From: a virus
Taxonomy: Duplodnaviria; Heunggongvirae; Uroviricota; Caudoviricetes
Reading direction: 5' to 3' (one strand)
Length of the DNA stretch: 44,162 nucleotides
Virus record (IMG/VR): IMGVR_UViG_2541047704_000003
Below are positions 2,143 to 13,686 of this stretch, in pieces (within the stretch, counting starts at the first letter, position 1; the number at the start of each line of letters is the position of its first letter). The notes below the pieces were generated by a model. It saw nothing but the letters and a program-made list of their open reading frames with translations, searched no databases and had not been told where the DNA came from. Made by a program: the position numbers and the translations under genes.

Positions 2143-2791
2143 CGTTTATCGCGTTGCTGATTTCCGGCGTTACCTGTTTAGGAACCATAACCCAACCATC
2201 CGGAGTTACCGGAAGCGAGAACGGCAGCACATCTCTGTGAACAAGTTTTTGCTGTGACAGGTTATCCAGAACTTTCTGTACTGCTGCATCACCGAATACA
2301 CCAAGCGCATCTGCCATAACTCCTACAACCTGATAAGCCTCAGCGCATACCGTGGATAAACCATCCGGAATTACCGGAGAGTTGCCGGGTTCTTTAATGT
2401 GCAAGCGAGGCTCACCATCTTTTGGCTCAGGCCACTGGCGCTCCATGTTGATCTTCAATTTATCTTCCATAGCAACGGTAATTTCAGCATCGCTGATGCC
2501 AGCACGGCGCTGTGCATCCCACAACAGAAACTGCATATCAGCCCACTCGCTAAGATCGTCTGGTTCGGCTGCGGCTTCCAGTGCCTCTTTTGAGAGGTGT
2601 TTCAGTGGACCAATGGGGCCAACGCAGCCAAATGTGGAGTCAGACCATTTGGCATGCTCGTGGCGAATCTGTTCGCGTTCCAGTGATGCCAGTGCAATTC
2701 GTGCTAGTTCCATTTGTTCGCCACGAGTAAGCCCGTTTTCAAGCGGATTTTTAATGAACAATTCAATACGTTCTTTGGTAATAGTGGTCAT
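2051..2791 (-). CDS. hypothetical early-left accessory protein
   Basis: 246-aa ORF in operon orientation; contains NSPVIPDGL junction motif shared with neighbouring ORFs. Confidence 0.5.
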   Translation of the reverse strand: MTTITKERIELFIKNPLENGLTRGEQMELARIALASLEREQIRHEHAKWSDSTFGCVGPIGPLKHLSKEALEAAAEPDDLSEWADMQFLLWDAQRRAGISDAEITVAMEDKLKINMERQWPEPKDGEPRLHIKEPGNSPVIPDGLSTVCAEAYQVVGVMADALGVFGDAAVQKVLDNLSQQKLVHRDVLPFSLPVTPDGWVMVPKQVTPEISNAINVVGQRCTCGNCSQRLWDLLLDATQQGVNRG

Positions 2792-3039
2792 GTGTTAATC
2801 CTCAAAACTTTATGCCCGGGCGCAAAAGTACGTGTTTTGTCTTTGCTTATTCGCCACCCGTCTTTACGGGCCTCTTTTGCACAACCAGACCATGACGTAC
2901 CGATATACTCACCGAAGTCTGGCACTGGATATACACCTTCCGTACACTGGCGACAATCACAATAGAGATGCATGGTGTAACTTGCGGCAATAGCCATATC
3001 ACTCTCTTTTTCCCTGAAGCATGGCAGCGTGGCAGGCAT
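2788..3039 (-). CDS. hypothetical Cys-rich small protein
   Basis: 83-aa ORF with CDCRQC motif; 4-nt overlap with the downstream gene; no family recognised. Confidence 0.3.
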   Translation of the reverse strand: MPATLPCFREKESDMAIAASYTMHLYCDCRQCTEGVYPVPDFGEYIGTSWSGCAKEARKDGWRISKDKTRTFAPGHKVLRINT

Positions 3040-3607
3040 CCTCTACGCCCTTAACTGCATCTGCGCAGTAGTTATAGCGATTGCATTCCACTAACTTCTG
3101 CCTGAGATTTTCAATTGCTTGCGCGACATCAGCCTGTATTACAGGAACTGGCGGAACGGCTGTCTGCTGCTCTCGAACGTCATTAGTCGCTATCGGTTCT
3201 GCTGCCAACTGACTGGCATATTTGTTAATGGTAACGATAAGCTCTTGCTCAGCCTCATCCAGACAATCACCGATACCTCGCCTGTCGCCGTCAAAATCAT
3301 CGAAATCAGCACGAACTCTGGCAAATTTCAGGATTGCGGACAACACCTCACCAGGAATTACCGGAGAGTTGGTTGACGTTTCCGAAATTTCCCGAAAATT
3401 ATTGGTTGACGAATTCGCGTTTTCCCGAAAGTTTCCGGCATGAAGCATAGCCGCGCGGCAGGCGTTCCAGCCTCTCACCTCTGCAATAGCGGCAACAGCA
3501 TCGACCGCGTACATGCTAAGAGGGTTAGGCATTGGTTTTTCTTCAGGTACTACTGGCACTGGCTTGGCATATATAGCGGCTGAACATACCAACCCTTTGA
3601 TAACCAA
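2999..3607 (-). CDS. hypothetical early-left accessory protein
   Basis: 202-aa ORF; contains TNSPVIPGEV junction motif encoded by an 18-nt stretch identical to one in ORF 2051-2791. Confidence 0.4.
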   Translation of the reverse strand: MVIKGLVCSAAIYAKPVPVVPEEKPMPNPLSMYAVDAVAAIAEVRGWNACRAAMLHAGNFRENANSSTNNFREISETSTNSPVIPGEVLSAILKFARVRADFDDFDGDRRGIGDCLDEAEQELIVTINKYASQLAAEPIATNDVREQQTAVPPVPVIQADVAQAIENLRQKLVECNRYNYCADAVKGVEDACHAAMLQGKRE

Positions 3608-3825: not shown

Positions 3826-4570
3826 TGTTTACAGCCTGACAAGACTCTTTGAGCACCCAGTCAATAGCGTCTTTCCATGCCTCTGTTTCGACTGGTGGAT
3901 TTTCACGCTTAACCTGTTCATAGAAGCGCACTGCTTTAACCAGTCCTTCCGGTACTACTGGTGATGGCTGTTTAGCTTCTAAATCAGCAATTCTGTCAAC
4001 CACGGCATCGACAGCATCTGAAAAGCCGAACCAGTTGCTCCACTCCGGCTCATCCCCGGTTGCTGCAAAGTACATATCTGCTAAAGCAGATTCAGCATGG
4101 TCACGCTCGTTAATGAGTTGCTCTTCGCTTTTCTCCAGTTCAGCAATACGCTTACCCCCATCCGAGATAACACCTTCGTAATACTCACGCTGCTCGTTGA
4201 GTTTTGATTTTGTCTCCTCAAGCTCAACTCTCAGCTTCCCAACAGTAAGAGCAATATCCTCGTTCTCCTGGTCGCGGCGTTTTATGTATTGCTGGTTTCT
4301 TTCCCGTTCATCCAGCAGTGCCAGCACAGTAGCCGGATTGGCTGCGGCGATGAATTCAGCATTGGCCTGCTGTTCCATTTGGAAATCTTCATCGAAACCG
4401 CTTTCTGGATGCGCTCCTTCAATTCTGCAAATGGGAATATATCCAGCAACTTCACGATGAATTAGCGCATAATCACCATCAAATCGGCTCTCTCCATATT
4501 CGAGCGACCACTCACCACACGTTGCTTTTTCTGCCGCTTCACGCAGTGCCTGATAGTTAATTTCGCTCAC
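3806..4570 (-). CDS. Ea22-like coiled-coil protein
   Basis: 254-aa ORF with central charged coiled-coil-like region (LEETKSKLNEQREYYE...AELEKSEEQLINERD), in the ea22 position upstream of orf73-like gene. Confidence 0.45.
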   Translation of the reverse strand: MSEINYQALREAAEKATCGEWSLEYGESRFDGDYALIHREVAGYIPICRIEGAHPESGFDEDFQMEQQANAEFIAAANPATVLALLDERERNQQYIKRRDQENEDIALTVGKLRVELEETKSKLNEQREYYEGVISDGGKRIAELEKSEEQLINERDHAESALADMYFAATGDEPEWSNWFGFSDAVDAVVDRIADLEAKQPSPVVPEGLVKAVRFYEQVKRENPPVETEAWKDAIDWVLKESCQAVNIDTNGD

Positions 4571-4788
4571 TTCGAACCTCTCTGTTTACTGATAAGCTCC
4601 AGATCCTCCTGGCAACTTGCACAAGTCCGACAACCCTGAACGACCAGGCGTCTTCGTTCATCTATGGGATCGCCACACTCACAACAATGAGTGGCGGATA
4701 TAGTCTGGTAGTTCAGACGACGCATTTTTATTGCTGTATTGCGCTGTAATTCTTCAATTTCTGATGCTGAATCAATGATGTCCGCCAT
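4567..4788 (-). CDS. TraR/DksA-family C4 zinc-finger protein (lambda orf73-like)
   Basis: 73-aa ORF with CxxC...CxxC pattern (CCECGDPIDERRRLVVQGCRTCASC) typical of TraR/DksA zinc fingers; same size and position as lambda orf73. Confidence 0.65.
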   Translation of the reverse strand: MADIIDSASEIEELQRNTAIKMRRLNYQTISATHCCECGDPIDERRRLVVQGCRTCASCQEDLELISKQRGSK

Positions 4789-4886
4789 CTTTCATTAATC
4801 CCTGAATTGTTGGTTAATACGCTTGAGGGTGAATGCGAATAATAAAAAAGGAGCCTGTAGCTCCCTGATGATTTTGCTTTTCATGT

Positions 4887-5168
4887 TCACCGTTCCTTAA
4901 AGACGCCGTTTAACATGCCGATCGCCAGGCTTAAATGAGTCGGTGTGAATCCCATCAGCGTTACCGTTTCGCGGTGCTTCTTTAGTACGCTACGGCAAAT
5001 GTCATCGACGTTTTTATCCGGAAACTGCTGTCTGGCTTTTTTGATTTCAGAATTAGCCTGACGGGCAATGCTGCGAAGGGCGTTTTCTTGCTGAGGTGTC
5101 ACTGAACAAGCCCCATGTCGGCAAGCATAAGCACACAGAATATGAAGCCCGCTGCCAGAAAAATGCAT
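4887..5168 (-). CDS. lambda orf60a-like hypothetical protein (start uncertain)
   Basis: 93-aa ORF from track; C-terminal part matches my recollection of lambda orf60a; a small hydrophobic orf61-like peptide is encoded in another frame at its 5' end. Confidence 0.4.
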   Translation of the reverse strand: MHFSGSGLHILCAYACRHGACSVTPQQENALRSIARQANSEIKKARQQFPDKNVDDICRSVLKKHRETVTLMGFTPTHLSLAIGMLNGVFKER

Positions 5169-6989: not shown

Positions 6990-7286
6990 TTATACCTCTG
7001 AATCAATATCAGCCTGATGGTGAGCAATGGTTTCAACTATGTACCGGATGTGTTCTGCCATGCGCTCCTGAAACTCAACATCGTCATCAAACGCACGGGT
7101 AATGGCTTTTTTGCTGGCCCCGTGGCGTTGTAAATGATCGATGCATAGCGATTCAAACAGGTGCTGGGGCAGGCCTTTTTCCATGTCGTCTGCCAGTTCT
7201 GCCTCTTTCTCTTCACGGGCGATCTGCTGGTAGTGACGCGCCCAGCTCTGAGCCTCAAGACGATCCTGAATGTAATAAGCGTTCAT
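6990..7286 (-). CDS. gam: Gam RecBCD inhibitor (short GamS form)
   Basis: 98-aa [24 protein letters not shown]... matching lambda GamS; the upstream in-frame extension of the long form is not open here. Confidence 0.85.
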
Positions 7287-7361
7287 GGCTGAACTCCTGA
7301 AAATGGCTGTGAAAATATCGCCCGCGAAATGCCAGGCTGATTAGGAAAACAGGAAAGGGGG

Positions 7362-7505
7362 TTAGTGAATGCTTTTGCTTGATCTCAGTTTCAGTATTAA
7401 TATCCATTTTTTATAAGCGTCGACGGCCTCACGAAACATCTTTTCATCGCCAATAAAAGTGGCGATAGTGAATTTAGTCTGGATAGCCATAATTGTTTGA
7501 TCCAT
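7362..7505 (-). CDS. kil: Kil host-killing protein (FtsZ inhibitor)
   Basis: 47-aa reading frame [47 protein letters not shown] (C-terminal part of track ORF 7362-7631) matching lambda Kil; overlaps cIII in another frame as in lambda. Confidence 0.7.
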
Positions 7506-7638
7506 TTTTTGGGACTCCTGGCTGATTAAGTATGTCGATAAGGCGTTTCCATCCGTCACGTAATTTACGGGTGATTCGTTCAAGTAAAGATTCGGAAGGG
7601 CAGCCAGCAACAGGCCACCCTGCAATGGCATATTGCAT
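7474..7638 (-). CDS. cIII: CIII (FtsH inhibitor, protects CII)
   Basis: 54-codon ORF read by hand on minus strand: [54 protein letters not shown], matching lambda CIII; AAGGAG Shine-Dalgarno 6 nt upstream; below the 60-aa track cutoff. Confidence 0.7.
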   Translation of the reverse strand: MQYAIAGWPVAGCPSESLLERITRKLRDGWKRLIDILNQPGVPKNGSNNYGYPD

Positions 7639-7710
7639 GGTGTGCTCCTTATTTATACATAACGAAAAACGCCTCGAGTGAAGCGTAATTGGTATGCGGT
7701 AACGCCGCGC

Positions 7711-8079
7711 TCAGGCGGCCTTGATAGTCATATCATCTGAATCAAATATTCCTGATGTATCGATATCGGTAATTCTTATTCCTTCACTACCATCCATTGG
7801 AGGCCATCCTTCCTGACCATTTCCATCATTCCAGTCGAACTCACACACAACACCATATGCATTTAAGTCGCTTGAAATTGCTATAAGCAGAGCATGTTGC
7901 GCCAGCATGATTAATACAGCATTTAATACAGAGCCGTGTTTATTGAGTCGGTATTCAGAGTCTGACCAGAAATTATTAATCTGGTGAAGTTTTTCCTCTG
8001 TCATTACGTCATGGTCAATTTCAATTTCTATTGATGCTTTCCAGTCGTAATCAATGATGTATTTTTTGATGTTTGACAT
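7711..8079 (-). CDS. ea10: Ea10-like protein
   Basis: 122-aa ORF in the ea10 position between cIII and ral; matches my recollection of lambda Ea10. Confidence 0.6.
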   Translation of the reverse strand: MSNIKKYIIDYDWKASIEIEIDHDVMTEEKLHQINNFWSDSEYRLNKHGSVLNAVLIMLAQHALLIAISSDLNAYGVVCEFDWNDGNGQEGWPPMDGSEGIRITDIDTSGIFDSDDMTIKAA

Positions 8080-8092
8080 CTATTCATATCCT

Positions 8093-8125
8093 CATAGATA
8101 AAAAATCGCCCTCACACTGGAGGGC
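8093..8125 (-). terminator. rho-independent terminator-like hairpin in leftward operon (tL2-like position)
   Basis: on minus strand GCCCTC-CAGTGT-GAGGGC followed by GATTTTTTAT; lies between ral and ea10. Confidence 0.45.
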
Positions 8126-8261
8126 AAAGAAGATTTCCAATAATCAGAACAAGTCGGCTCCTGTTTAGTTACGAGCGACATTGCTCCGTGTATTCACTCG
8201 TTGGAATGAATACACAGTGCAGTGTTTATTCTGTTATTTATGCCAAAAATAAAGGCCACTA

Positions 8262-8462
8262 TCAGGCAGCTTTGTTGTTCTGTTTACCAAGTTCTCTGGC
8301 AATCATTGCCGTCGTTCGTATTGCCCATTTATCGACATATTTCCCATCTTCCATTACAGGAAACATTTCTTCAGGCTTAACCATGCATTCCGATTGCAGC
8401 TTGCATCCATTGCATCGTTTGAATTGTCCACACCATTGATTTGTATCAATAGTCGTAGTCAT
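8262..8462 (-). CDS. ral: Ral restriction-alleviation protein
   Basis: 66-aa ORF MTTTIDTNQWCGQFKRCNGCKLQSECMVKPEEMFPVMEDGKYVDKWAIRTTAMIARELGKQNNKAA matching lambda Ral. Confidence 0.8.
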   Translation of the reverse strand: MTTTIDTNQWCGQFKRCNGCKLQSECMVKPEEMFPVMEDGKYVDKWAIRTTAMIARELGKQNNKAA

Positions 8463-8675
8463 ACGGATAGTCCTGGTATTGTTCCATCACATCTTGAGGA
8501 TGCTCTTCGAACTCTTCAAATTCTTCTTCCATATATCACCTTAAATAGTGGATTGCGGTAGTAAAGATTGTGCCTGTCTTTTAACCACATCAGGCTCGGT
8601 GGTTCTCGTGTACCCCTACAACGAGAAATCGGATAAACTCTATTCACCCCTACAGAGAGCAAAAGAGAAACGCCG

Positions 8676-9257
8676 ATGAACAACTCATGGTGGCAGGAAC
8701 TAATGCATTTTTTCCTGCAAGGAATGACACTTAAACAGTTGATTCATATGCTAATCATCCTGATCATATTGATTATTGTTATGCCGGTAAGCGTAAAAGA
8801 ATGGATAAACCTGCATAGTCCAGAAATCCTTCCTCATTACTGGATGTATTACATCCTGTTGTTTTGCGTTAGCTATGTGCTTAACGGCGTTGTTAATTCC
8901 GCTTATCACGCTGTGACTGAAAGAATTGAGGTATTCGCTGCTCAGAAGCGCAAATCTAAAGAAGAAAAATATGTGCAAGATTTGTTTGATTCGTTAACTC
9001 TTGGAGAAAGAGCGTATTTGGCATTCGCTGTAGCCGCTAATAACCAGCTACAAACGGAAAAGGGCGCTCATGAATCAATTTCATTGCTCAAAAAAGGACT
9101 CCTCGTTCGAAGGCCTCCTGCTGTTGGATATCCTGATACCGACCGTTTCGTTATCCCTGAAAGCTATAGACATGAGTGCTACATTAGGTTTGCCGGGAAG
9201 GCAGACAGCCTTATGGATGAACTTATCGCTCAGGATAAGCATGGCAAAAACAAGTAA
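8676..9257 (+). CDS. sieB: SieB superinfection exclusion protein
   Basis: 193-aa ORF MNNSWWQELMHFFLQGMTLKQLIHMLIILI... with N-terminal transmembrane segments, closely matching lambda SieB; located between ral and N as in lambda. Confidence 0.85.
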   Translation: MNNSWWQELMHFFLQGMTLKQLIHMLIILIILIIVMPVSVKEWINLHSPEILPHYWMYYILLFCVSYVLNGVVNSAYHAVTERIEVFAAQKRKSKEEKYVQDLFDSLTLGERAYLAFAVAANNQLQTEKGAHESISLLKKGLLVRRPPAVGYPDTDRFVIPESYRHECYIRFAGKADSLMDELIAQDKHGKNK

Positions 9258-9273
9258 TTAGCAAATGAATTTA

Positions 9274-9546
9274 TCATCTCGCCGTCAGTTGTTTTGATTT
9301 CCGGTAGCCTGCCGCGTAAAGAGCTACGTTCGGAAGACAAGTTGAACCTTCATATTTTCTGGTCAACGTTGTCAGAGTTATCACTTCTGCTCTCATTGCT
9401 GGTTTGAGCTTGCATTGCAAGACCACTCGTGAAGGGGTTGGCCTGTGTAGCTTGTCGGAGCTGATCGCCTCCTGACTTTGCAGATTTGCGCGACGAGCTC
9501 TACGGCGAGAAGCTGCGGTGCCTTTAAATTCTGTTTTTCTGGACAT
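9274..9546 (-). CDS. N: N-type transcription antiterminator
   Basis: arginine-rich motif GTAASRRRARRANLQ near N-terminus (N-protein ARM-like); strong GGGAGG Shine-Dalgarno before ATG at 9546 (track ORF extends to 9618); nutL boxA/boxB just upstream; position between sieB and pL. Confidence 0.6.
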   Translation of the reverse strand: MSRKTEFKGTAASRRRARRANLQSQEAISSDKLHRPTPSRVVLQCKLKPAMRAEVITLTTLTRKYEGSTCLPNVALYAAGYRKSKQLTAR

Positions 9547-9644
9547 GGATTCCTCCCGAATAAACTTTGGCGATGCAATCTCGAAGCTCCTCCTGAGACG
9601 GTTGCTTCGGCATTGCATCCCACAGCTTATGTGGTTGGGTGATC

Positions 9645-9689
9645 TGGCTTTTCAGCCACGTAGTCGAGAGTCGACGTTGTTTAAAGAGC
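9645..9689 (-). promoter_or_regulatory. nutL (boxA GCTCTTTAAACAA plus boxB hairpin TGGCT-GAAA-AGCCA)
   Basis: read on minus strand upstream of N; boxA resembles CGCTCTT(T)A consensus; boxB is a 5-bp stem with purine-rich GAAA(A) loop like lambda boxB. Confidence 0.5.
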
Positions 9690-9734
9690 CTGCCAGTCTG
9701 TTCCATTTGGCTTCCAGCGTCCTGCTGACGGTTA

Positions 9735-9800
9735 AATAGTACGATATGTACTTTACAAGATCAATACAATTTGTTGTAAGTTGGCGTGGTTTTTTATAAC
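9735..9800 (-). promoter_or_regulatory. candidate pL/oL operator-promoter region
   Basis: contains 11-mer ATATGTACTTT (9744-9754) that recurs in inverse orientation at oR (12054-12064), plus TACAA/TTGTA half-site-like repeats; located between the rex-position cassette and nutL/N. Confidence 0.4.
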
Positions 9801-9952
9801 GCTTTGTATTTAATAGTGTTGTTTTTTAGCGTGGATGTATTGCCTCGGCGATGTAAGGAGAGATCAGAATTGCGTGGTTTAGTGGGTTGCATCTATTTAT
9901 TTTTCAATAAATATAATTGGTTATGTGTTTTTAGGTGGGCGAACGTGAGGCA

Positions 9953-9977
9953 AAGAAAACCCGGCGCTGAGGCCGGG
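9953..9977 (-). terminator. rho-independent terminator closing the cI operon
   Basis: minus-strand hairpin CCCGGC-CTCAGC-GCCGGG followed by TTTTCTTTG, beginning 5 nt after the stop of ORF 9983-10735. Confidence 0.5.
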
Positions 9978-9982
9978 TTGTA

Positions 9983-10735
9983 TTATGCTGCAAGTCTCTT
10001 AACCCAAGTCTCTCTTTTGGAGAATGGTAGAACTTGGCTTGATTCATGGAAGAGTAAGGAGAGTTGTTGCATTTGATCACCAATTGCTTCGCTGTCTATA
10101 ACAACAAATCTGTTGTTATACTCCTCACTTGAAGCTTTAAGATCAATTAGTTTCCCAAGCAATGAGTAAGCACTATTCCAGCTTCCTCCGTGTTTCACGC
10201 TTGATGTAAAAACGTATTTAGGTATGTCGGTTTTTATTGTTACAGGGACGGTAATTTGATGTCCACTCAAGCCATATACGTTTTCACGAAGAGAAAGTGC
10301 GTCTCTAAGCTCTGTGTGATATAGATAATCAATAACCATACTTTCAAACTTTTCAGCTTGAACTGGCTGATACCAGTCTAACGACAAAGTTGATGCGAGT
10401 ATACCAGCTCTAATTATGTTCGATGTAATCGCACCGACATCCTTTTCTGTTGCCCAAGCAATGATTTCTCCTCGAGCATTGAGTTCTGCGCCTTCTTTAA
10501 GCAGTAATTGTCGTATCTCATCAAGTCGTTTTTTGGTAAGCGAGATCCCTCTTGCCTCCATATTCATTAAGGCATCGCATCTGTCACTAACTAAATACCT
10601 ACCATTGACTTCACGGATAAAGGCACCGACATGCTCTCCATCATCACAGTAAGTGAATGGACTGATAATTCTCAAGGTCTTGCCTATTGGATGGCATTCG
10701 AAACCTAGTTGTGAGATCACTGTTGAGCACATCAT
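9983..10735 (-). CDS. uncharacterised protein, distal gene of two-gene cassette in the rexAB position
   Basis: 250-aa ORF; start overlaps stop of upstream ORF (ATGA); AT-rich relative to flanking phage DNA; no family, transmembrane segment or catalytic motif recognised. Confidence 0.6.
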   Translation of the reverse strand: MMCSTVISQLGFECHPIGKTLRIISPFTYCDDGEHVGAFIREVNGRYLVSDRCDALMNMEARGISLTKKRLDEIRQLLLKEGAELNARGEIIAWATEKDVGAITSNIIRAGILASTLSLDWYQPVQAEKFESMVIDYLYHTELRDALSLRENVYGLSGHQITVPVTIKTDIPKYVFTSSVKHGGSWNSAYSLLGKLIDLKASSEEYNNRFVVIDSEAIGDQMQQLSLLFHESSQVLPFSKRETWVKRLAA

Positions 10736-11289
10736 ATTCCAAACCCCATTTGCCCCGACTCATCTTCAAGCGGTAAAGGTATTCTCCCAGAGTAAGTTAT
10801 GTTCAGATGTTTACAGAAGTAATTCCAATACCCTACCAGGTCATCTGGGTTTATGTCATCTTCGATTGGAAACGCTATTCTATCACTATAGTATCCAGCT
10901 TCTTCATAGTATACATGGTAGTGAGCACCGTAAATGATATCTTGGTACTTCGGATGATCGACCTTGTAACTATTCGTGTGTTTGTCAAAGTGATAGGTAT
11001 CTACCGCGAAAACCCTCTTGTTATGATAGAAAGCAATAATATTTATTTTAGGGTAAGAAATCGGGTCATCAGGTTCTGAATCCTGATCTGGTTTCCATTT
11101 CAGTTCAAACTTTAGCCCTTGTATAGGTATACAATCCTCATCCAAGGGGATGATATGGGCTTGTAGCCACATATCAGAGCGACTTGGTTTCTGTTTCCAT
11201 TTAACGCCAGAAAAGTTAACTATTTTTTTACAATAAAGTACTTTATCAACTTCTACTTGGCTTGGCTGATAATCATCTATTTTTGCCAA
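10732..11289 (-). CDS. uncharacterised acidic protein, proximal gene of two-gene cassette in the rexAB position
   Basis: 185-aa ORF 39 nt downstream of cI stop on the same strand; Asp/Glu/Tyr-rich; no family recognised. Confidence 0.6.
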   Translation of the reverse strand: MAKIDDYQPSQVEVDKVLYCKKIVNFSGVKWKQKPSRSDMWLQAHIIPLDEDCIPIQGLKFELKWKPDQDSEPDDPISYPKINIIAFYHNKRVFAVDTYHFDKHTNSYKVDHPKYQDIIYGAHYHVYYEEAGYYSDRIAFPIEDDINPDDLVGYWNYFCKHLNITYSGRIPLPLEDESGQMGFGI

Positions 11290-11328
11290 TGTTTACCGCC
11301 CTGTAAATTGTAGATAAAAGTGGTTTCA

Positions 11329-11988
11329 TCACCCAAACGTCTCTTCAGGCCATTGGCTGGCGATAACTTTCCCCACAACGGAACAACTCTCATTGCATGG
11401 GATCATTGGGTATTGTGGGTTTAGTGGCTGTAGAAACACCTGACCGCTATCCCTGATCAGTTTCTTGAAGGTAAATTCATCACCACTAAGTCTGGCTATG
11501 CAGAAATCGCCGGGCTCAACAGCTTGCTCAGGGTCAACCAGAATTAACATCCCGTCAGGAAAGCTGGGTTTGGAACCTGTTGGTGCGGTCATTGAGTTAC
11601 CTTCAACCTCAAGCCAGAATGCAGAGTCACTGGCTTTTTTGGTTGTGCTTACCAATCTCTCCGCATCGCCTTTGGTAAAGGTTCTGAGTTCTGGAGAGAA
11701 CATCCCAGCCTGAACATGAGAAAAAACAGGGTACTCATATTGTTTTTTAACTGGGGCCGATGAGTATTCGCCAACAGGTGAAAATGTCCCGTCGTGGTTG
11801 AATGATATGTTATCAATACCAAGGTATTTAAACACCACACCAATATCACTAAGAGATGGATGACGAGATCCGCGCAACCAGTGTCCAATCCCACCCTGCG
11901 TCATACCTAGCTCTTCGGCTAACTTCTCTTGAGTTATGCCGAGCTCTTTCATTCTGGATCTAGCCAGTTCATACCATTTCATTTTCAT
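11329..11988 (-). CDS. cI: CI-type prophage repressor (HTH N-terminal domain plus LexA/S24-like autocleavage domain)
   Basis: C-terminal ~130 aa ([21 protein letters not shown]...[15 protein letters not shown]) matches lambda CI; N-terminal HTH ([20 protein letters not shown]) differs from lambda; start uncertain (ATG 11988 favoured, track ORF starts with TTG at 12030). Confidence 0.8.
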
Positions 11989-12030
11989 GTCCTTATTATT
12001 ACGCTCTGTACTGGAACCATCCATGCACAA

Positions 12031-12090
12031 TGTGTATTTTTACTTGTATTCGCAAAGTACATATTGTATTTTTTTTATTCGTGTTTACTA
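12031..12090. promoter_or_regulatory. candidate oR/pR-pRM divergent operator-promoter region
   Basis: intergenic region between divergent cI and cro; contains AAAGTACATAT (12054-12064), the reverse complement of the oL 11-mer, and repeated TTGTATT elements. Confidence 0.45.
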
Positions 12091-12100
12091 TGGAGGGCAT

Positions 12101-12316
12101 ATGAGCAACCTACGAAAATATCGAGAGTCACTGAATATCTCTCAAACAACACTTGCTAAGGCAGTTGGATGCACACAGGGAGCTATCGGACATTGGGAAT
12201 CTGGTCGTCGCTTCCCAGACCTTAAAACATGCCGTGCTCTTGTTGCGTGCCTAAACAAGTTAGGCGCAAAAGTCAGTCTTGATGACGTGTTCCCGCCGGA
12301 ACACAAAGCCGCTTAA
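12101..12316 (+). CDS. cro: Cro-like repressor (HTH XRE family)
   Basis: 71-aa ORF MSNLRKYRESLNISQTTLAKAVGCTQGAIGHWESGRRFPDL... with HTH; GGAGGG Shine-Dalgarno upstream; divergent from cI. Confidence 0.7.
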   Translation: MSNLRKYRESLNISQTTLAKAVGCTQGAIGHWESGRRFPDLKTCRALVACLNKLGAKVSLDDVFPPEHKAA

Positions 12317-12326
12317 TAAGCGGATC

Positions 12327-12372
12327 CGCTCTTTGTAACAACGGACATTCGTCCTACGTCGCTGAAAAGCGA
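12327..12372 (+). promoter_or_regulatory. nutR (boxA CGCTCTTTGTAACAA plus boxB hairpin TCGCT-GAAA-AGCGA)
   Basis: directly downstream of cro; same boxA/boxB architecture and GAAA(A) loop as nutL. Confidence 0.5.
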
Positions 12373-12457
12373 GTTCCAAGATATCTGACCAACTAAGGCC
12401 ATATGCGTTTCCACGCATACCTTTCAACTAACTATTCACTATTGGAAATCTTAAGAA

Positions 12458-12754
12458 ATGGAAAGAACAAGTTACAGCAAACTATCACAGCGTGACGTTG
12501 ATCGCGCAGAAACAGATTTACTTATCAATCTGTCAGCTATTACCCAGCGCGGTCTGGCAAAGATGATTGGCTGTCATGAATCGAAGATAAGCAGAACGGA
12601 CTGGAGATTTATTGCTTCGGTCTTGTGTGCTTTCGGAATGGCATCAGACATCAGTCCGATTAGCAGGGCTTTTAAGTATGCGCTTGATGGACTCACCAAT
12701 AAAAAACGCCCGGCGGCAACCGAGCGTTCTGAACAAATCCAGATGGAATTCTGA
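12458..12754 (+). CDS. cII: CII transcriptional activator
   Basis: 98-aa ORF; C-terminus LTNKKRPAATERSEQIQMEF matches lambda CII; N-terminal DNA-binding part differs from lambda. Confidence 0.8.
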   Translation: MERTSYSKLSQRDVDRAETDLLINLSAITQRGLAKMIGCHESKISRTDWRFIASVLCAFGMASDISPISRAFKYALDGLTNKKRPAATERSEQIQMEF

Positions 12755-12786
12755 GGTCATTACTGGATCAATCCACAGGAGTCATT

Positions 12787-13686
12787 ATGACAAATACAGC
12801 AAAAATACTCAACTTCTGCAGAGGTAACTTTGCCAAACAGGAGCGTAATGTGGCAGATCTCGATGATGGTTACGCCAGACTATCAAATATGCTGCTTGAG
12901 GCTTATTCAGGCGCAGATCTGACCAAGCGACAGTTTAAAGTGCTGCTTGCCATTCTGCGTAAAACCTATGGATGGAATAAACCAATGGACAGAATCACCG
13001 ATTCTCAACTTAGCGAGATTACAAAGTTACCCGTCAAACGGTGCAATGAAGCCAAGTTAGAACTCGTCAGAATGAATATTATCAAGCAGCAAGGCGGCAT
13101 GTTTGGACCAAATAAAAACATCTCAGAATGGTGTATCCCTCAAAACGAGGGAAAATCCCCTAAAACGAGGGATAAAACATCCCTCAAATTGGGGGATTGC
13201 TATCCCTCAAAACAGGGGGACACAAAAGACACTATTACAAAAGAAAAAAGAAAAGATTATTCGTCAGAGAATTCTGGCGAATCCTCTGACCAGCCAGAAA
13301 ACGACCTTTCTGTGGTGAAACCGGATGCTGCAATTCAGAGCGGCAGCAAGTGGGGGACAGCAGAAGACCTGACCGCCGCAGAATGGATGTTTGACATGGT
13401 GAAGACCATCGCGCCATCAGCCAGAAAACCGAATTTTGCAGGGTGGGCTAACGATATCCGCCTGATGCGTGAACGTGACGGACGTAACCATCGCGACATG
13501 TGTGTACTGTTCCGCTGGGCATGCCAGGACAACTTCTGGTCCGGTAACGTGCTGAGCCCGGCCAAACTCCGCGACAAGTGGACCCAGCTCGAAATCAACC
13601 GTAACAAGCAACAGGCAGGTGTGACAGCCTGCAAACCAAAACTCGACCTGACAAACACTGACTGGATTTACGGGGTGGATTTATGA
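12787..13686 (+). CDS. O: replication initiator O
   Basis: 299-aa ORF closely matching lambda O; internal iterons present. Confidence 0.9.
   Translation: MTNTAKILNFCRGNFAKQERNVADLDDGYARLSNMLLEAYSGADLTKRQFKVLLAILRKTYGWNKPMDRITDSQLSEITKLPVKRCNEAKLELVRMNIIKQQGGMFGPNKNISEWCIPQNEGKSPKTRDKTSLKLGDCYPSKQGDTKDTITKEKRKDYSSENSGESSDQPENDLSVVKPDAAIQSGSKWGTAEDLTAAEWMFDMVKTIAPSARKPNFAGWANDIRLMRERDGRNHRDMCVLFRWACQDNFWSGNVLSPAKLRDKWTQLEINRNKQQAGVTACKPKLDLTNTDWIYGVDL
13134..13262 (+). repeat. ori-lambda-type origin: four iterons plus AT-rich region inside O
   Basis: four ~18-bp inverted-repeat iterons of the form ATCCCTCAAAACGAGGGA (variants) followed by A/T-rich stretch ACAAAAGAAAAAAGAAAAGATTATT. Confidence 0.7.

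What the first reader, a model, noticed from the sequence alone, without database searches (positions are those of the whole stretch)
9953..11328. Unassigned two-gene cassette in the rexA-rexB slot, co-oriented with cI
Seen in sequence: two minus-strand ORFs (10732-11289, 185 aa, acidic; 9983-10735, 250 aa) begin 39 nt after the cI stop, overlap each other by ATGA (translational coupling), and are closed 5 nt later by a hairpin plus U-tract terminator. The block is visibly AT-richer than flanking phage DNA, and neither protein has motifs I can assign. Established knowledge: in lambda this slot holds rexA-rexB, co-transcribed with cI from pRM in lysogens and mediating abortive-infection exclusion; the cI-adjacent slot is a recurrent hotspot for exclusion and defence cargo in lambdoid phages. 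Inference: a lysogen-expressed exclusion or abortive-infection module. Neither protein looks like a polytopic membrane protein of the RexB type, so the mechanism is probably different. The flanking genes sieB and ral add to an immunity-region defence island.
Basis: partly seen in the sequence, partly recalled or inferred. Interest (0 to 1): 0.85.

Follow-up and report, generated by a model that had tools for sequence, protein, structure and literature searches.

The report
Repressor-linked two-gene candidate phage-defence cassette
Two overlapping genes sit just after the repressor gene of this lambda-like E. coli prophage, where lambda carries rexAB; they are a real, conserved, swappable pair that is probably an anti-phage module, already flagged as such by prediction software but never tested.

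Summary
Gene A (10732-11289, 185 aa) and gene B (9983-10735, 250 aa) lie on the minus strand 39 nt after cI. They overlap by ATGA and end at a hairpin/U-tract terminator, inside the immunity region between oL and oR. The window is essentially phage PhiR57_1. The identical cassette is in 241 of 5426 complete E. coli genomes, including Nissle 1917.

The A-B pair is strictly conserved: 88 of 88 related loci, and every distant relative I examined. It is under strong purifying selection. In prophages it sits after repressors of many immunity types. In VT2-Sakai, which has the same cI, other cargo fills the slot. Distant pairs also occur in a defence island (HsdR, RES, AbiTii).

The pair is not unassignable:
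- B has DUF1828 (a type III secretion chaperone-like fold) plus DUF1829 (a PD-(D/E)xK fold whose catalytic motif is not conserved).
- A has no fold match, is DUF6978-like, and carries an invariant Arg/Asp/His/Asn/His/His cluster.
- Both weakly match PADLOC candidate PDC-M24.
- Both exact proteins are listed as predicted defence genes by DefensePredictor but were not tested there.

There is no similarity to RexA, RexB or BstA. Defence is the best-supported reading (about 0.55), and the mechanism is inferred. It is a reasonable bench candidate but not a surprise.

The parts
10732..11289 (-). Gene A: 185 aa, soluble, acidic. It is DUF6978-like (below threshold) and belongs to PHROG 2017. The TTG start is replaced by GTG or TTG in most homologues. 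Invariant cluster: R92, D97, H104, N106, H123, H125, then an acidic residue 3-5 positions after H125. The conserved C-terminal tail (170-185) is predicted disordered.
9983..10735 (-). Gene B: 250 aa, soluble. The N-terminal DUF1828 domain has a type III secretion chaperone/YbjN-like fold. The C-terminal DUF1829-type domain has a PD-(D/E)xK-like fold without a conserved catalytic motif. PHROG 1960; full-length match to PADLOC PDC-M24B.
10732..10735 (-). ATGA overlap of the A stop codon and the B start codon. An overlap is conserved in all divergent homologues examined: 4 nt in 12 loci and 13 nt in one subgroup of 3.
11290..11328 (-). 39-nt cI-A spacer. It has no predicted terminator. It is not conserved in distant loci, where homology starts only a few nt before the A start codon.
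9948..9979 (-). Intrinsic terminator that closes the cI-A-B unit: an 8-bp stem with 6 G-C pairs, then a U-tract. The homologous sequence in VT2-Sakai is annotated as the 'putative rho independent terminator for pRM transcript'.
11329..12024 (-). cI repressor (HTH_3 + Peptidase_S24), the upstream gene of the presumed operon. Its true start codon is uncertain.
9734..9754 (.). oL operator-like palindrome, matching a copy in oR at 12054-12074. It places the cassette inside the immunity region.
12054..12074 (.). oR operator-like palindrome, the partner of 9734-9754.

Best explanation
The cassette is most likely a two-protein anti-phage module that the prophage expresses during lysogeny, read through from cI in the same way lambda expresses rexAB.

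Shown:
- The two genes form an obligate, translationally coupled pair under purifying selection.
- The module is the coding pair with no conserved upstream DNA; its homology to distant loci also runs through the terminator.
- It moves among prophages with unrelated repressors, and it is allelic to other cargo in the same slot.
- B is a DUF1828 (type III secretion chaperone/YbjN-like) domain followed by a DUF1829 (PD-(D/E)xK fold) domain.
- A is a small soluble beta-rich protein with no solved structural relative. It has an invariant R/D/H/N/H/H cluster.

Inferred:
- The cluster H104/H123/H125 plus the acidic residue that follows (H-x-H-x(3,4)-[E/D]) is a metal centre. This would make A the likelier enzymatic effector.
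- B is the sensor, adaptor or antitoxin-like partner, because the canonical nuclease residues of its PD-(D/E)xK domain are not conserved. A parallel is the DUF1829-containing DS-6B, the partner of the HipA-like kinase that provides the essential catalytic activity in the validated HipAD system.
- The invariant but disordered C-terminal tail of A (P173...SGQ) may be the peptide held by the chaperone-like domain of B.
- Infection by another phage would release or activate the effector and abort or block that infection.
- Expression tied to cI would switch the module off when the prophage itself is induced.
For: Position and anatomy:
- The layout is cI, a 39-nt spacer, A, B (ATGA overlap), terminator, oL/pL, N, all on one strand.

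Pairing:
- An A homologue lies directly upstream of B in 88 of 88 related loci. The same holds in every distant relative examined, including one where the gene caller missed it.

Selection:
- dN/dS is about 0.05-0.2 with dS saturated.

Mobility and the cargo slot:
- Homology to distant loci runs only from about 9948 to about 11290.
- The upstream gene is a repressor of many different immunity types.
- VT2-Sakai has the same cI, terminator and N, but other genes between positions 9980 and 11331.

Defence association:
- PADLOC PDC-M24B matches B over its full length (4.7e-10). PDC-M24A matches A weakly (5e-4). Both matches recur across the family.
- DefensePredictor Tables S5 and S10 list WP_000968518.1 and WP_001062368.1 as 'Predicted novel defense gene', with log-odds 5.6 and 4.9-5.4.
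- A distant pair lies between HsdR, a RES-domain protein and AbiTii. Another lies next to a SIR2_2 protein.
- The cI-N slot is a published site for rexAB and bstA (PMC8585504).

Folds and residues.

HipAD analogy: PMC13092281.
Against: - No experimental result for this pair was found, and transcription in lysogens was not examined.
- The PADLOC and DefensePredictor entries are predictions. PDC-M24 is an unpublished, unvalidated candidate.
- The match of A to PDC-M24A and DUF6978 is weak and partial. The DUF6978 score of 22 bits is below the 29.6-bit threshold.
- The tight link to repressor genes would also fit a role in the phage's own lysogeny or induction control.
- No model of the A-B complex could be computed.
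- Brenes & Laub 2025, the most relevant experimental screen, could not be read.
Confidence: 0.55

Rival explanations
1. The pair is a toxin-antitoxin or addiction module. Its main role would be to stabilise the prophage, or the island that carries it, by post-segregational killing or growth arrest. It would have no dedicated anti-phage role.
For: - It is a two-gene, translationally coupled operon of small soluble proteins.
- The first gene keeps a weak non-ATG start, as if low dosage matters.
- It occurs on several kinds of mobile element.
- The DUF1829-containing DS-6B is interpreted as an antitoxin-like partner in HipAD.
Against: - Neither protein matches a known toxin or antitoxin family in Pfam or NCBIfam.
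- B has no recognised DNA-binding antitoxin domain.
- Many toxin-antitoxin pairs act as defence anyway, so this rival overlaps the main reading.
- The defence-island neighbourhood and the defence predictions favour an anti-phage role.
Confidence: 0.13
2. The pair is an accessory of the phage's own life cycle. It could tune repressor function, the lysogeny decision, induction or prophage DNA transactions, which would explain why it travels with repressor genes.
For: - It has a very tight association with repressor genes of many immunity types over deep divergence.
- It has no promoter of its own.
- B has a nuclease-like fold that could bind DNA.
Against: - Phages with the same cI and the same flanks do without it and carry unrelated cargo in its place.
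- Only 7 of the 101 phage records that match this cI region by DNA carry the cassette.
- Distant pairs exist outside prophages, in a defence island, next to an IS element, and near a SIR2_2 gene, with no repressor nearby.
Confidence: 0.12
3. The pair is a lysogenic-conversion function that benefits the host in another way, such as stress tolerance or a colonisation or virulence trait of B2-type E. coli. It would be unrelated to phages.
For: - The cassette is common in extraintestinal and commensal B2-type strains, including Nissle 1917, ABU 83972, ATCC 25922-type and UPEC isolates.
- The analogous gene bstA was first linked phenotypically to virulence (PMC8585504).
Against: - Neither protein has a signal peptide or membrane segment.
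- Homologues occur in insect, plant and environmental Enterobacterales and in metagenomes, so a host-niche-specific role is unlikely.
- The defence-island context of distant homologues also argues against it.
Confidence: 0.07
4. B is the effector, an active nuclease with an unorthodox PD-(D/E)xK site that cuts incoming phage DNA. A is its sensor or regulator. This is the reverse of the role assignment in the best explanation.
For: - Others found DUF1829 by HHpred at 98.8% probability, in clan PDDEXK.
- H159, K173, D198 and D214 are invariant within the Enterobacterales subfamily.
- A evolves faster than B, as sensors often do.
Against: - In the deep alignment only G155, S157, G158, P164 and D198 stay invariant in that domain. 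H159 and K173 vary, and no (D/E)xK motif is conserved.
- A carries the better-conserved catalytic-looking cluster.
Confidence: 0.2

Closest known systems
Lambda RexA-RexB
   Same: - Same position: directly downstream of cI, same strand, closed by the terminator that precedes oL/pL and N.
- Two genes.
- Presumed expression in lysogens from the repressor promoter.
- AT-rich cargo inside the immunity region (PMC8585504).
   Different: - No sequence similarity. Pfam and PADLOC scans at E up to 1 returned no Rex family.
- Neither protein is a polytopic membrane protein like RexB.
- The folds are different.
PADLOC candidate system PDC-M24 (unpublished, unvalidated)
   Same: - Two adjacent genes of matching sizes.
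- B matches PDC-M24B models end to end (4.7e-10 and 1.5e-7).
- A and its relatives repeatedly match PDC-M24A models over the His-rich core (2e-4 to 3e-3).
   Different: - The scores are low, so this is a distant branch and not a clear member.
- A aligns over only about a third of the model.
- PDC-M24 itself has no published experimental support.
BstA (prophage BTP1 and relatives)
   Same: - Defence cargo tightly linked to the prophage repressor gene, apparently sharing its promoter and ending in its own terminator.
- The slot lies between cI and N (PMC8585504).
   Different: - BstA is a single protein with a DNA-based self-immunity element (aba).
- Here there are two unrelated proteins, no BstA match in PADLOC, and no self-immunity element was identified.
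HipAD / DS-6 (DefensePredictor; Brenes & Laub 2025)
   Same: A validated two-gene defence in which the partner of the enzyme carries a DUF1829 domain. It is modelled as an antitoxin-like binder of the effector and of DNA (PMC13092281).
   Different: - The effector there is a HipA-like kinase, and the partner's N-terminal domain is DUF3037.
- Here the partner protein A is DUF6978-like, and B's N-terminal domain is DUF1828.
- The DUF1829 assignment in DS-6B is itself only 78% by HHpred.
Cargo H0093/H0092 of VT2-Sakai and related Stx phages
   Same: It occupies exactly the same slot between the same cI (96-98% DNA identity) and the same terminator, oL and N.
   Different: The coding content is unrelated, and its function is also unknown.

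Membership tests
RexAB (lambda) | RexA-family sensor protein (sequence homology) | tested here: not met
   Pfam and PADLOC scans of A and B at E up to 1 gave only DUF6978, DUF1828 and PDC-M24.
RexAB (lambda) | RexB-type polytopic inner-membrane protein | tested here: not met
   The maximum 19-residue Kyte-Doolittle means are 0.45 (A) and 1.19 (B), so there is no transmembrane segment. The AF2 models are soluble globular folds.
RexAB (lambda) | Located downstream of cI, on the same strand, inside the immunity region, closed by a terminator before oL/pL | tested here: met
RexAB (lambda) | Transcribed with cI from pRM in lysogens | not testable with these tools
   Anatomy only: a 39-nt spacer without a terminator, no conserved upstream DNA, and a shared terminator annotated in VT2-Sakai as ending the pRM transcript.
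PADLOC PDC-M24 (candidate) | B component matches the PDC-M24B model | tested here: met
   PDLC04540 gives 4.7e-10 over residues 2-249 of 250. PDLC04539 gives 1.5e-7. Distant relatives reach 1e-15 to 1e-16.
PADLOC PDC-M24 (candidate) | A component matches the PDC-M24A model | tested here: inconclusive
   E is 4.8e-4 over residues 104-163 only. Similar weak hits appear in 5 of 9 distant relatives.
PADLOC PDC-M24 (candidate) | The two genes are adjacent and co-oriented | tested here: met
   The genes overlap in all loci examined.
Pfam DUF1828 | Score above the gathering threshold | tested here: met
   33.5 bits against a cut-off of 22. All 28 family members match.
Pfam DUF1829 / PD-(D/E)xK clan | Sequence match to DUF1829 | tested here: inconclusive
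   hmmscan finds nothing at E up to 5 in any of the 28 members. The HHpred table of PMC13092281 gives DUF1829 at residues 155-241 with 98.8% probability.
Pfam DUF1829 / PD-(D/E)xK clan | alpha-beta-beta-beta-alpha-beta restriction-endonuclease-like fold | tested here: met
Pfam DUF1829 / PD-(D/E)xK clan | Conserved catalytic D...(D/E)xK residues | tested here: not met
   In the deep alignment only G155, S157, G158, P164 and D198 are invariant in this domain. No (D/E)xK motif is conserved.
Pfam DUF6978 | Score above the gathering threshold | tested here: not met
   22 bits against a cut-off of 29.6, covering the C-terminal part only. Sub-threshold hits to the same region recur in 6 of 10 relatives. 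Remote homology is plausible but unproven.
BstA | Single BstA-family protein downstream of the repressor | tested here: not met
   No BstA model was hit in PADLOC at E up to 1. The architecture here has two genes.
Type II toxin-antitoxin | One gene is toxic alone and is neutralised by the other through direct binding | not testable with these tools
   Pfam and NCBIfam returned no toxin or antitoxin family for A or B.

The most novel reading that the evidence does not exclude
A is the founding member of a new-fold metalloenzyme family that acts as the killing or blocking effector. It is held in check through its conserved C-terminal tail by B, a protein that joins a secretion-chaperone-like domain to a catalytically dead nuclease domain. 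Together they would be a mechanistically new class of repressor-coupled abortive-infection system, found across Enterobacterales prophages and contributing to the unexplained lambdoid-phage resistance of E. coli Nissle 1917.
Probability: 0.2. Interest if true: 0.7.

Novelty: new member of a known kind. Interest (0 to 1): 0.48.

Why it matters
- The identical cassette is in about 4% of complete E. coli genomes. These include the probiotic Nissle 1917, ABU 83972 and the ATCC 11775 type strain, among other much-used strains.
- Relatives occur in prophages of Salmonella, Klebsiella, Yersinia, Providencia and others.
- Nissle 1917 is fully resistant to lambda and Stx phages for reasons only partly explained. 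The authors of that study asked which other genes of this same prophage contribute (PMC5987069). This cassette and sieB are obvious candidates.
- If it works as a defence, it affects phage therapy, Stx-phage spread and the engineering of probiotic strains.
- Protein A would also give a first function to an orphan fold and to the DUF6978-like and DUF1828 families.
- The finding is still an untested candidate among many, and it has already been flagged by prediction tools.

Tried and rejected
Searches that gave nothing or could not run:
- Sequence search of the PDB with shallow and deep profiles of A and B found nothing real. The 9e-12 hit of the A profile to a designed Kelch-like propeller sums six repeats, each non-significant on its own, and was rejected.
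- Foldseek of A against BFVD gave one uncharacterised phage protein at 4.6e-4.
- The afdb50 fold library was not available.
- NCBIfam gave nothing.
- Rfam found no RNA family in 8000-13000.
- No notable internal repeats were found that could act as a self-immunity element.

Fold ideas for the His motif of A, considered and not adopted:

Literature:
- No paper in the library mentions DUF1828 or DUF6978 in a defence context, apart from the DefensePredictor supplements.
- The Payne et al. 2024 preprint does not mention PDC-M24.
- Brenes & Laub 2025 (Cell Host Microbe) could not be obtained. A prior experimental test there cannot be excluded.
- The svsR sRNA paper was not pursued.
Full report
**What is there**

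The window is essentially Escherichia phage PhiR57_1 (PV340572.1), a lambdoid prophage of E. coli ECOR13. The cassette is 100% identical at the same coordinates. All on the minus strand, the order is:
- cI (11329-12024; HTH_3 + Peptidase_S24)
- a 39-nt spacer
- ORF A (10732-11289; 185 aa; TTG start)
- ORF B (9983-10735; 250 aa), overlapping A by ATGA
- an intrinsic terminator (stem 9979-9958, then a U-tract)
- an operator-like palindrome (9734-9754) that matches one in oR (12054-12074)
- N (9274-9546)

sieB lies on the plus strand, and ral, ea10, cIII and kil lie further left. No terminator is predicted between cI and A. A is acidic (pI 5.27), and neither protein has a membrane-type hydrophobic segment. 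The cassette has 40% GC against 50% for the window. The whole region 7200-13200 is AT-rich at 43%, so the contrast with immediate neighbours is modest.

**The genes are real and form an obligate pair**

- Full-length homologues of both proteins occur across Enterobacterales, and B homologues also in Aeromonas.
- In 88 of 88 related loci from IMG/VR and GTDB genomes, an A homologue lies immediately upstream of B. In the 15 divergent loci checked the two genes overlap by 4 or 13 nt.
- dS is saturated while dN is 0.11-0.67. Where it can be computed, dN/dS is 0.05-0.2.
- The A family is very small. A profile search of 1.84 billion representative proteins found only 20 clusters.
- Each distant A relative examined is followed by a gene of about 230-260 aa; most of these carry DUF1828.
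- Each distant B relative examined is preceded by an A-family ORF. In one case the gene caller had missed it.
- In 13 of 15 divergent homologues A starts at GTG or TTG.

**It is a mobile cargo module in a replaceable slot**

- DNA homology between the window and distant loci begins a few nucleotides before the A start codon (about 11288-11295). It ends just past the terminator (about 9948). The flanks are unrelated.
- In prophages, the gene upstream is a repressor of many different immunity types. These include S24-type repressors too diverged to be found with this cI, and short HTH-only repressors. A divergent cro-like gene accompanies them.
- Within E. coli, a 95-100% identical cassette follows at least three different cI alleles.
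- Conversely, VT2-Sakai and many Stx phages carry the same cI (96-98% DNA identity), terminator, oL and N. Homology breaks exactly at 9980 and 11331, and different genes (H0093, H0092) fill the gap.
- The depositors of VT2-Sakai annotate the shared hairpin as the terminator of the pRM transcript.
- So the cassette brings no conserved upstream sequence of its own and sits where read-through from cI would express it. This is the rexAB arrangement and the one described for bstA (PMC8585504). Co-transcription itself was not tested.

**What the proteins look like: B**

- B passes the Pfam DUF1828 threshold.
- Its AF2 model has pLDDT 82 and two domains.
- hmmscan does not detect DUF1829. The HHpred table in the DefensePredictor supplement assigns DUF1829, clan PDDEXK, to residues 155-241 of exactly this protein at 98.8%.
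- In an alignment that includes relatives of 26-32% identity, the invariant residues of that domain are G155, S157, G158, P164 and D198. H159 and K173 vary, and no (D/E)xK motif is kept. A canonical nuclease site is therefore not supported.
- The N-terminal domain keeps S25, P26, D32, G33, D51, R70 and E90.

**What the proteins look like: A**

- The AF2 model has pLDDT 82 and pTM 0.80. It is mostly beta-strand with two helices.
- Across the deep family the invariant residues are K22, W31, R92, D97, N106, G121, H123, H125, F158 and P173. H104 is nearly invariant.
- An acidic residue usually follows 3-5 positions after H125.
- The C-terminal tail is conserved (SGQ) but predicted disordered.
- A and its relatives give repeated sub-threshold hits to Pfam DUF6978 over this His-rich core.
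- I read the cluster as a probable metal or catalytic centre. That is an inference.

**Evidence bearing on function**

1. PADLOC. B matches the candidate-system model PDC-M24B end to end (4.7e-10). A matches PDC-M24A weakly (5e-4). The same pattern recurs in distant relatives. PDC systems are unpublished, unvalidated candidates.
2. DefensePredictor (Science 2026, PMC13092281). Tables S5 and S10 list WP_000968518.1 (B) and WP_001062368.1 (A), the RefSeq proteins annotated on this cassette in Nissle 1917, as 'Predicted novel defense gene'. They are absent from Table S6, the list of cloned and tested units.
3. Genomic context. One distant A-B pair lies between a type I HsdR, a HEPN/RES protein and AbiTii. 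Another lies next to an IS1595 transposase, and another next to a SIR2_2 protein. The pair is therefore not confined to prophages, and it keeps defence-type company.
4. The slot. The cI-N position is a known home of abortive-infection genes.
5. No similarity to RexA, RexB or BstA appeared in Pfam or PADLOC at E up to 1.

I found no experiment on this pair. Brenes & Laub 2025 could not be read.

**Most likely working**

The best-supported reading is a lysogen-expressed two-protein anti-phage module, with confidence about 0.55. Within it, I favour A as the enzymatic effector and B as the sensor, adaptor or antitoxin-like partner, for three reasons:
- A holds the better-conserved catalytic-looking cluster.
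- The nuclease motif of B is degenerate.
- In the validated HipAD system, the partner of the enzyme is the protein that carries DUF1829.

The conserved disordered tail of A is a natural candidate ligand for the chaperone-like domain of B. Each of these steps is inferred.

The reverse assignment (B an unorthodox nuclease, A the sensor) remains open at about 0.2 within the defence reading. Non-defence rivals are a pure addiction module, a phage life-cycle accessory, and another lysogenic-conversion trait. The life-cycle reading is weakened by the replaceability of the cassette and its occurrence outside prophages. The conversion reading is weakened by the lack of export signals and the broad ecological spread.

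**Comparison and novelty**

- In position and presumed expression it works like rexAB and bstA.
- It is not a member of either family, because the homology and membrane features were tested and not met.
- Its closest relative is the unvalidated PADLOC candidate PDC-M24, of which it looks like a distant branch.
- It is a new, untested member of the known kind 'repressor-linked prophage defence cargo'. As a prediction it is not new.

**Distribution and score**

The identical cassette is in 241 of 5426 complete E. coli genomes, always on the chromosome and in single copy. Carriers include Nissle 1917, ABU 83972 and the ATCC 11775 type strain. Interest is moderate at 0.48. It is a clean, widespread and easily testable candidate with one orphan-fold component, but its position, its likely role and its status as a predicted defence are all unsurprising.

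Noticed in passing
window 12412-12781 (cII, 12458-12754, + strand): The 'phage repressor (pr)' gene EcN_1294 of Bury et al. 2018 gave a roughly 200-fold drop in lambda and Stx-phage plating when cloned on pUC19. Its qPCR and cloning primers map onto the cII homologue of this prophage type, not onto cI.
   Followed up: partly
window 11329-12100: The window differs from PV340572.1 and the other five best phage records by a one-base length difference (772 against 771 nt) and about one further change. GenBank feature coordinates to the right of cI are therefore shifted by 1. Several IMG/VR contigs match 8000-13000 at 100.0%.
   Followed up: partly
L099 (VT2-Sakai) 2176-3500, equivalent to window 9981-11330: Stx phages with the same cI carry different, also uncharacterised cargo in this slot: H0093 (173 aa) and H0092 (40 aa). 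The slot may hold a series of alternative modules worth cataloguing.
   Followed up: partly
window 11982-12030: The cI start is uncertain. The ORF list gives TTG at 12030 and GenBank gives ATG at 12024. VT2-Sakai annotates a 217-aa cI starting about 40 nt further in, with a putative pRM overlapping the longer reading frame.
   Followed up: no
window 11289 and homologous loci: Gene A starts with TTG here, and with GTG or TTG in 13 of 15 divergent homologues. This may be selection for low expression.
   Followed up: partly
L100 1-6702 (GCA_050485545.1): This is a compact defence island: type I HsdR, a YgjP-like metalloprotease, a HEPN_RES_NTD1-RES protein, the distant A-B pair, and AbiTii.
   Followed up: partly
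L104 about 4480-5003: An A-family ORF of about 174 aa upstream of the B-like gene was missed by the gene caller (hmmsearch 4e-37). A SIR2_2 protein follows the pair.
   Followed up: partly
L010 (Actinomadura rugatobispora contig, 518 bp): A 518-bp contig in an actinomycete assembly carries the A/B junction at 82% amino-acid identity to the E. coli protein. This is probably contamination of that assembly.
   Followed up: no
L003 5044-5385; L009 5010-5354; L087 5127-5369: In a few prophages, an extra small ORF of 80-114 aa sits between the repressor and gene A. Two of these ORFs are hydrophobic.
   Followed up: no
window cI 3' end, about 11329-11420: A 2026 paper (PMC12803456) reports an sRNA, svsR, encoded on the opposite strand at the 3' end of cI in a lambdoid prophage of E. 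coli NC101. I did not check whether this cI carries it. Rfam found nothing here.
   Followed up: no
literature (bioRxiv 10.64898/2026.05.15.725322): A Staphylococcus aureus DUF6978-like protein (Q2FXA9) falls about 3-4-fold under ciprofloxacin. That is the behaviour expected of a gene tied to a prophage repressor promoter, but its genomic context was not examined.
   Followed up: no
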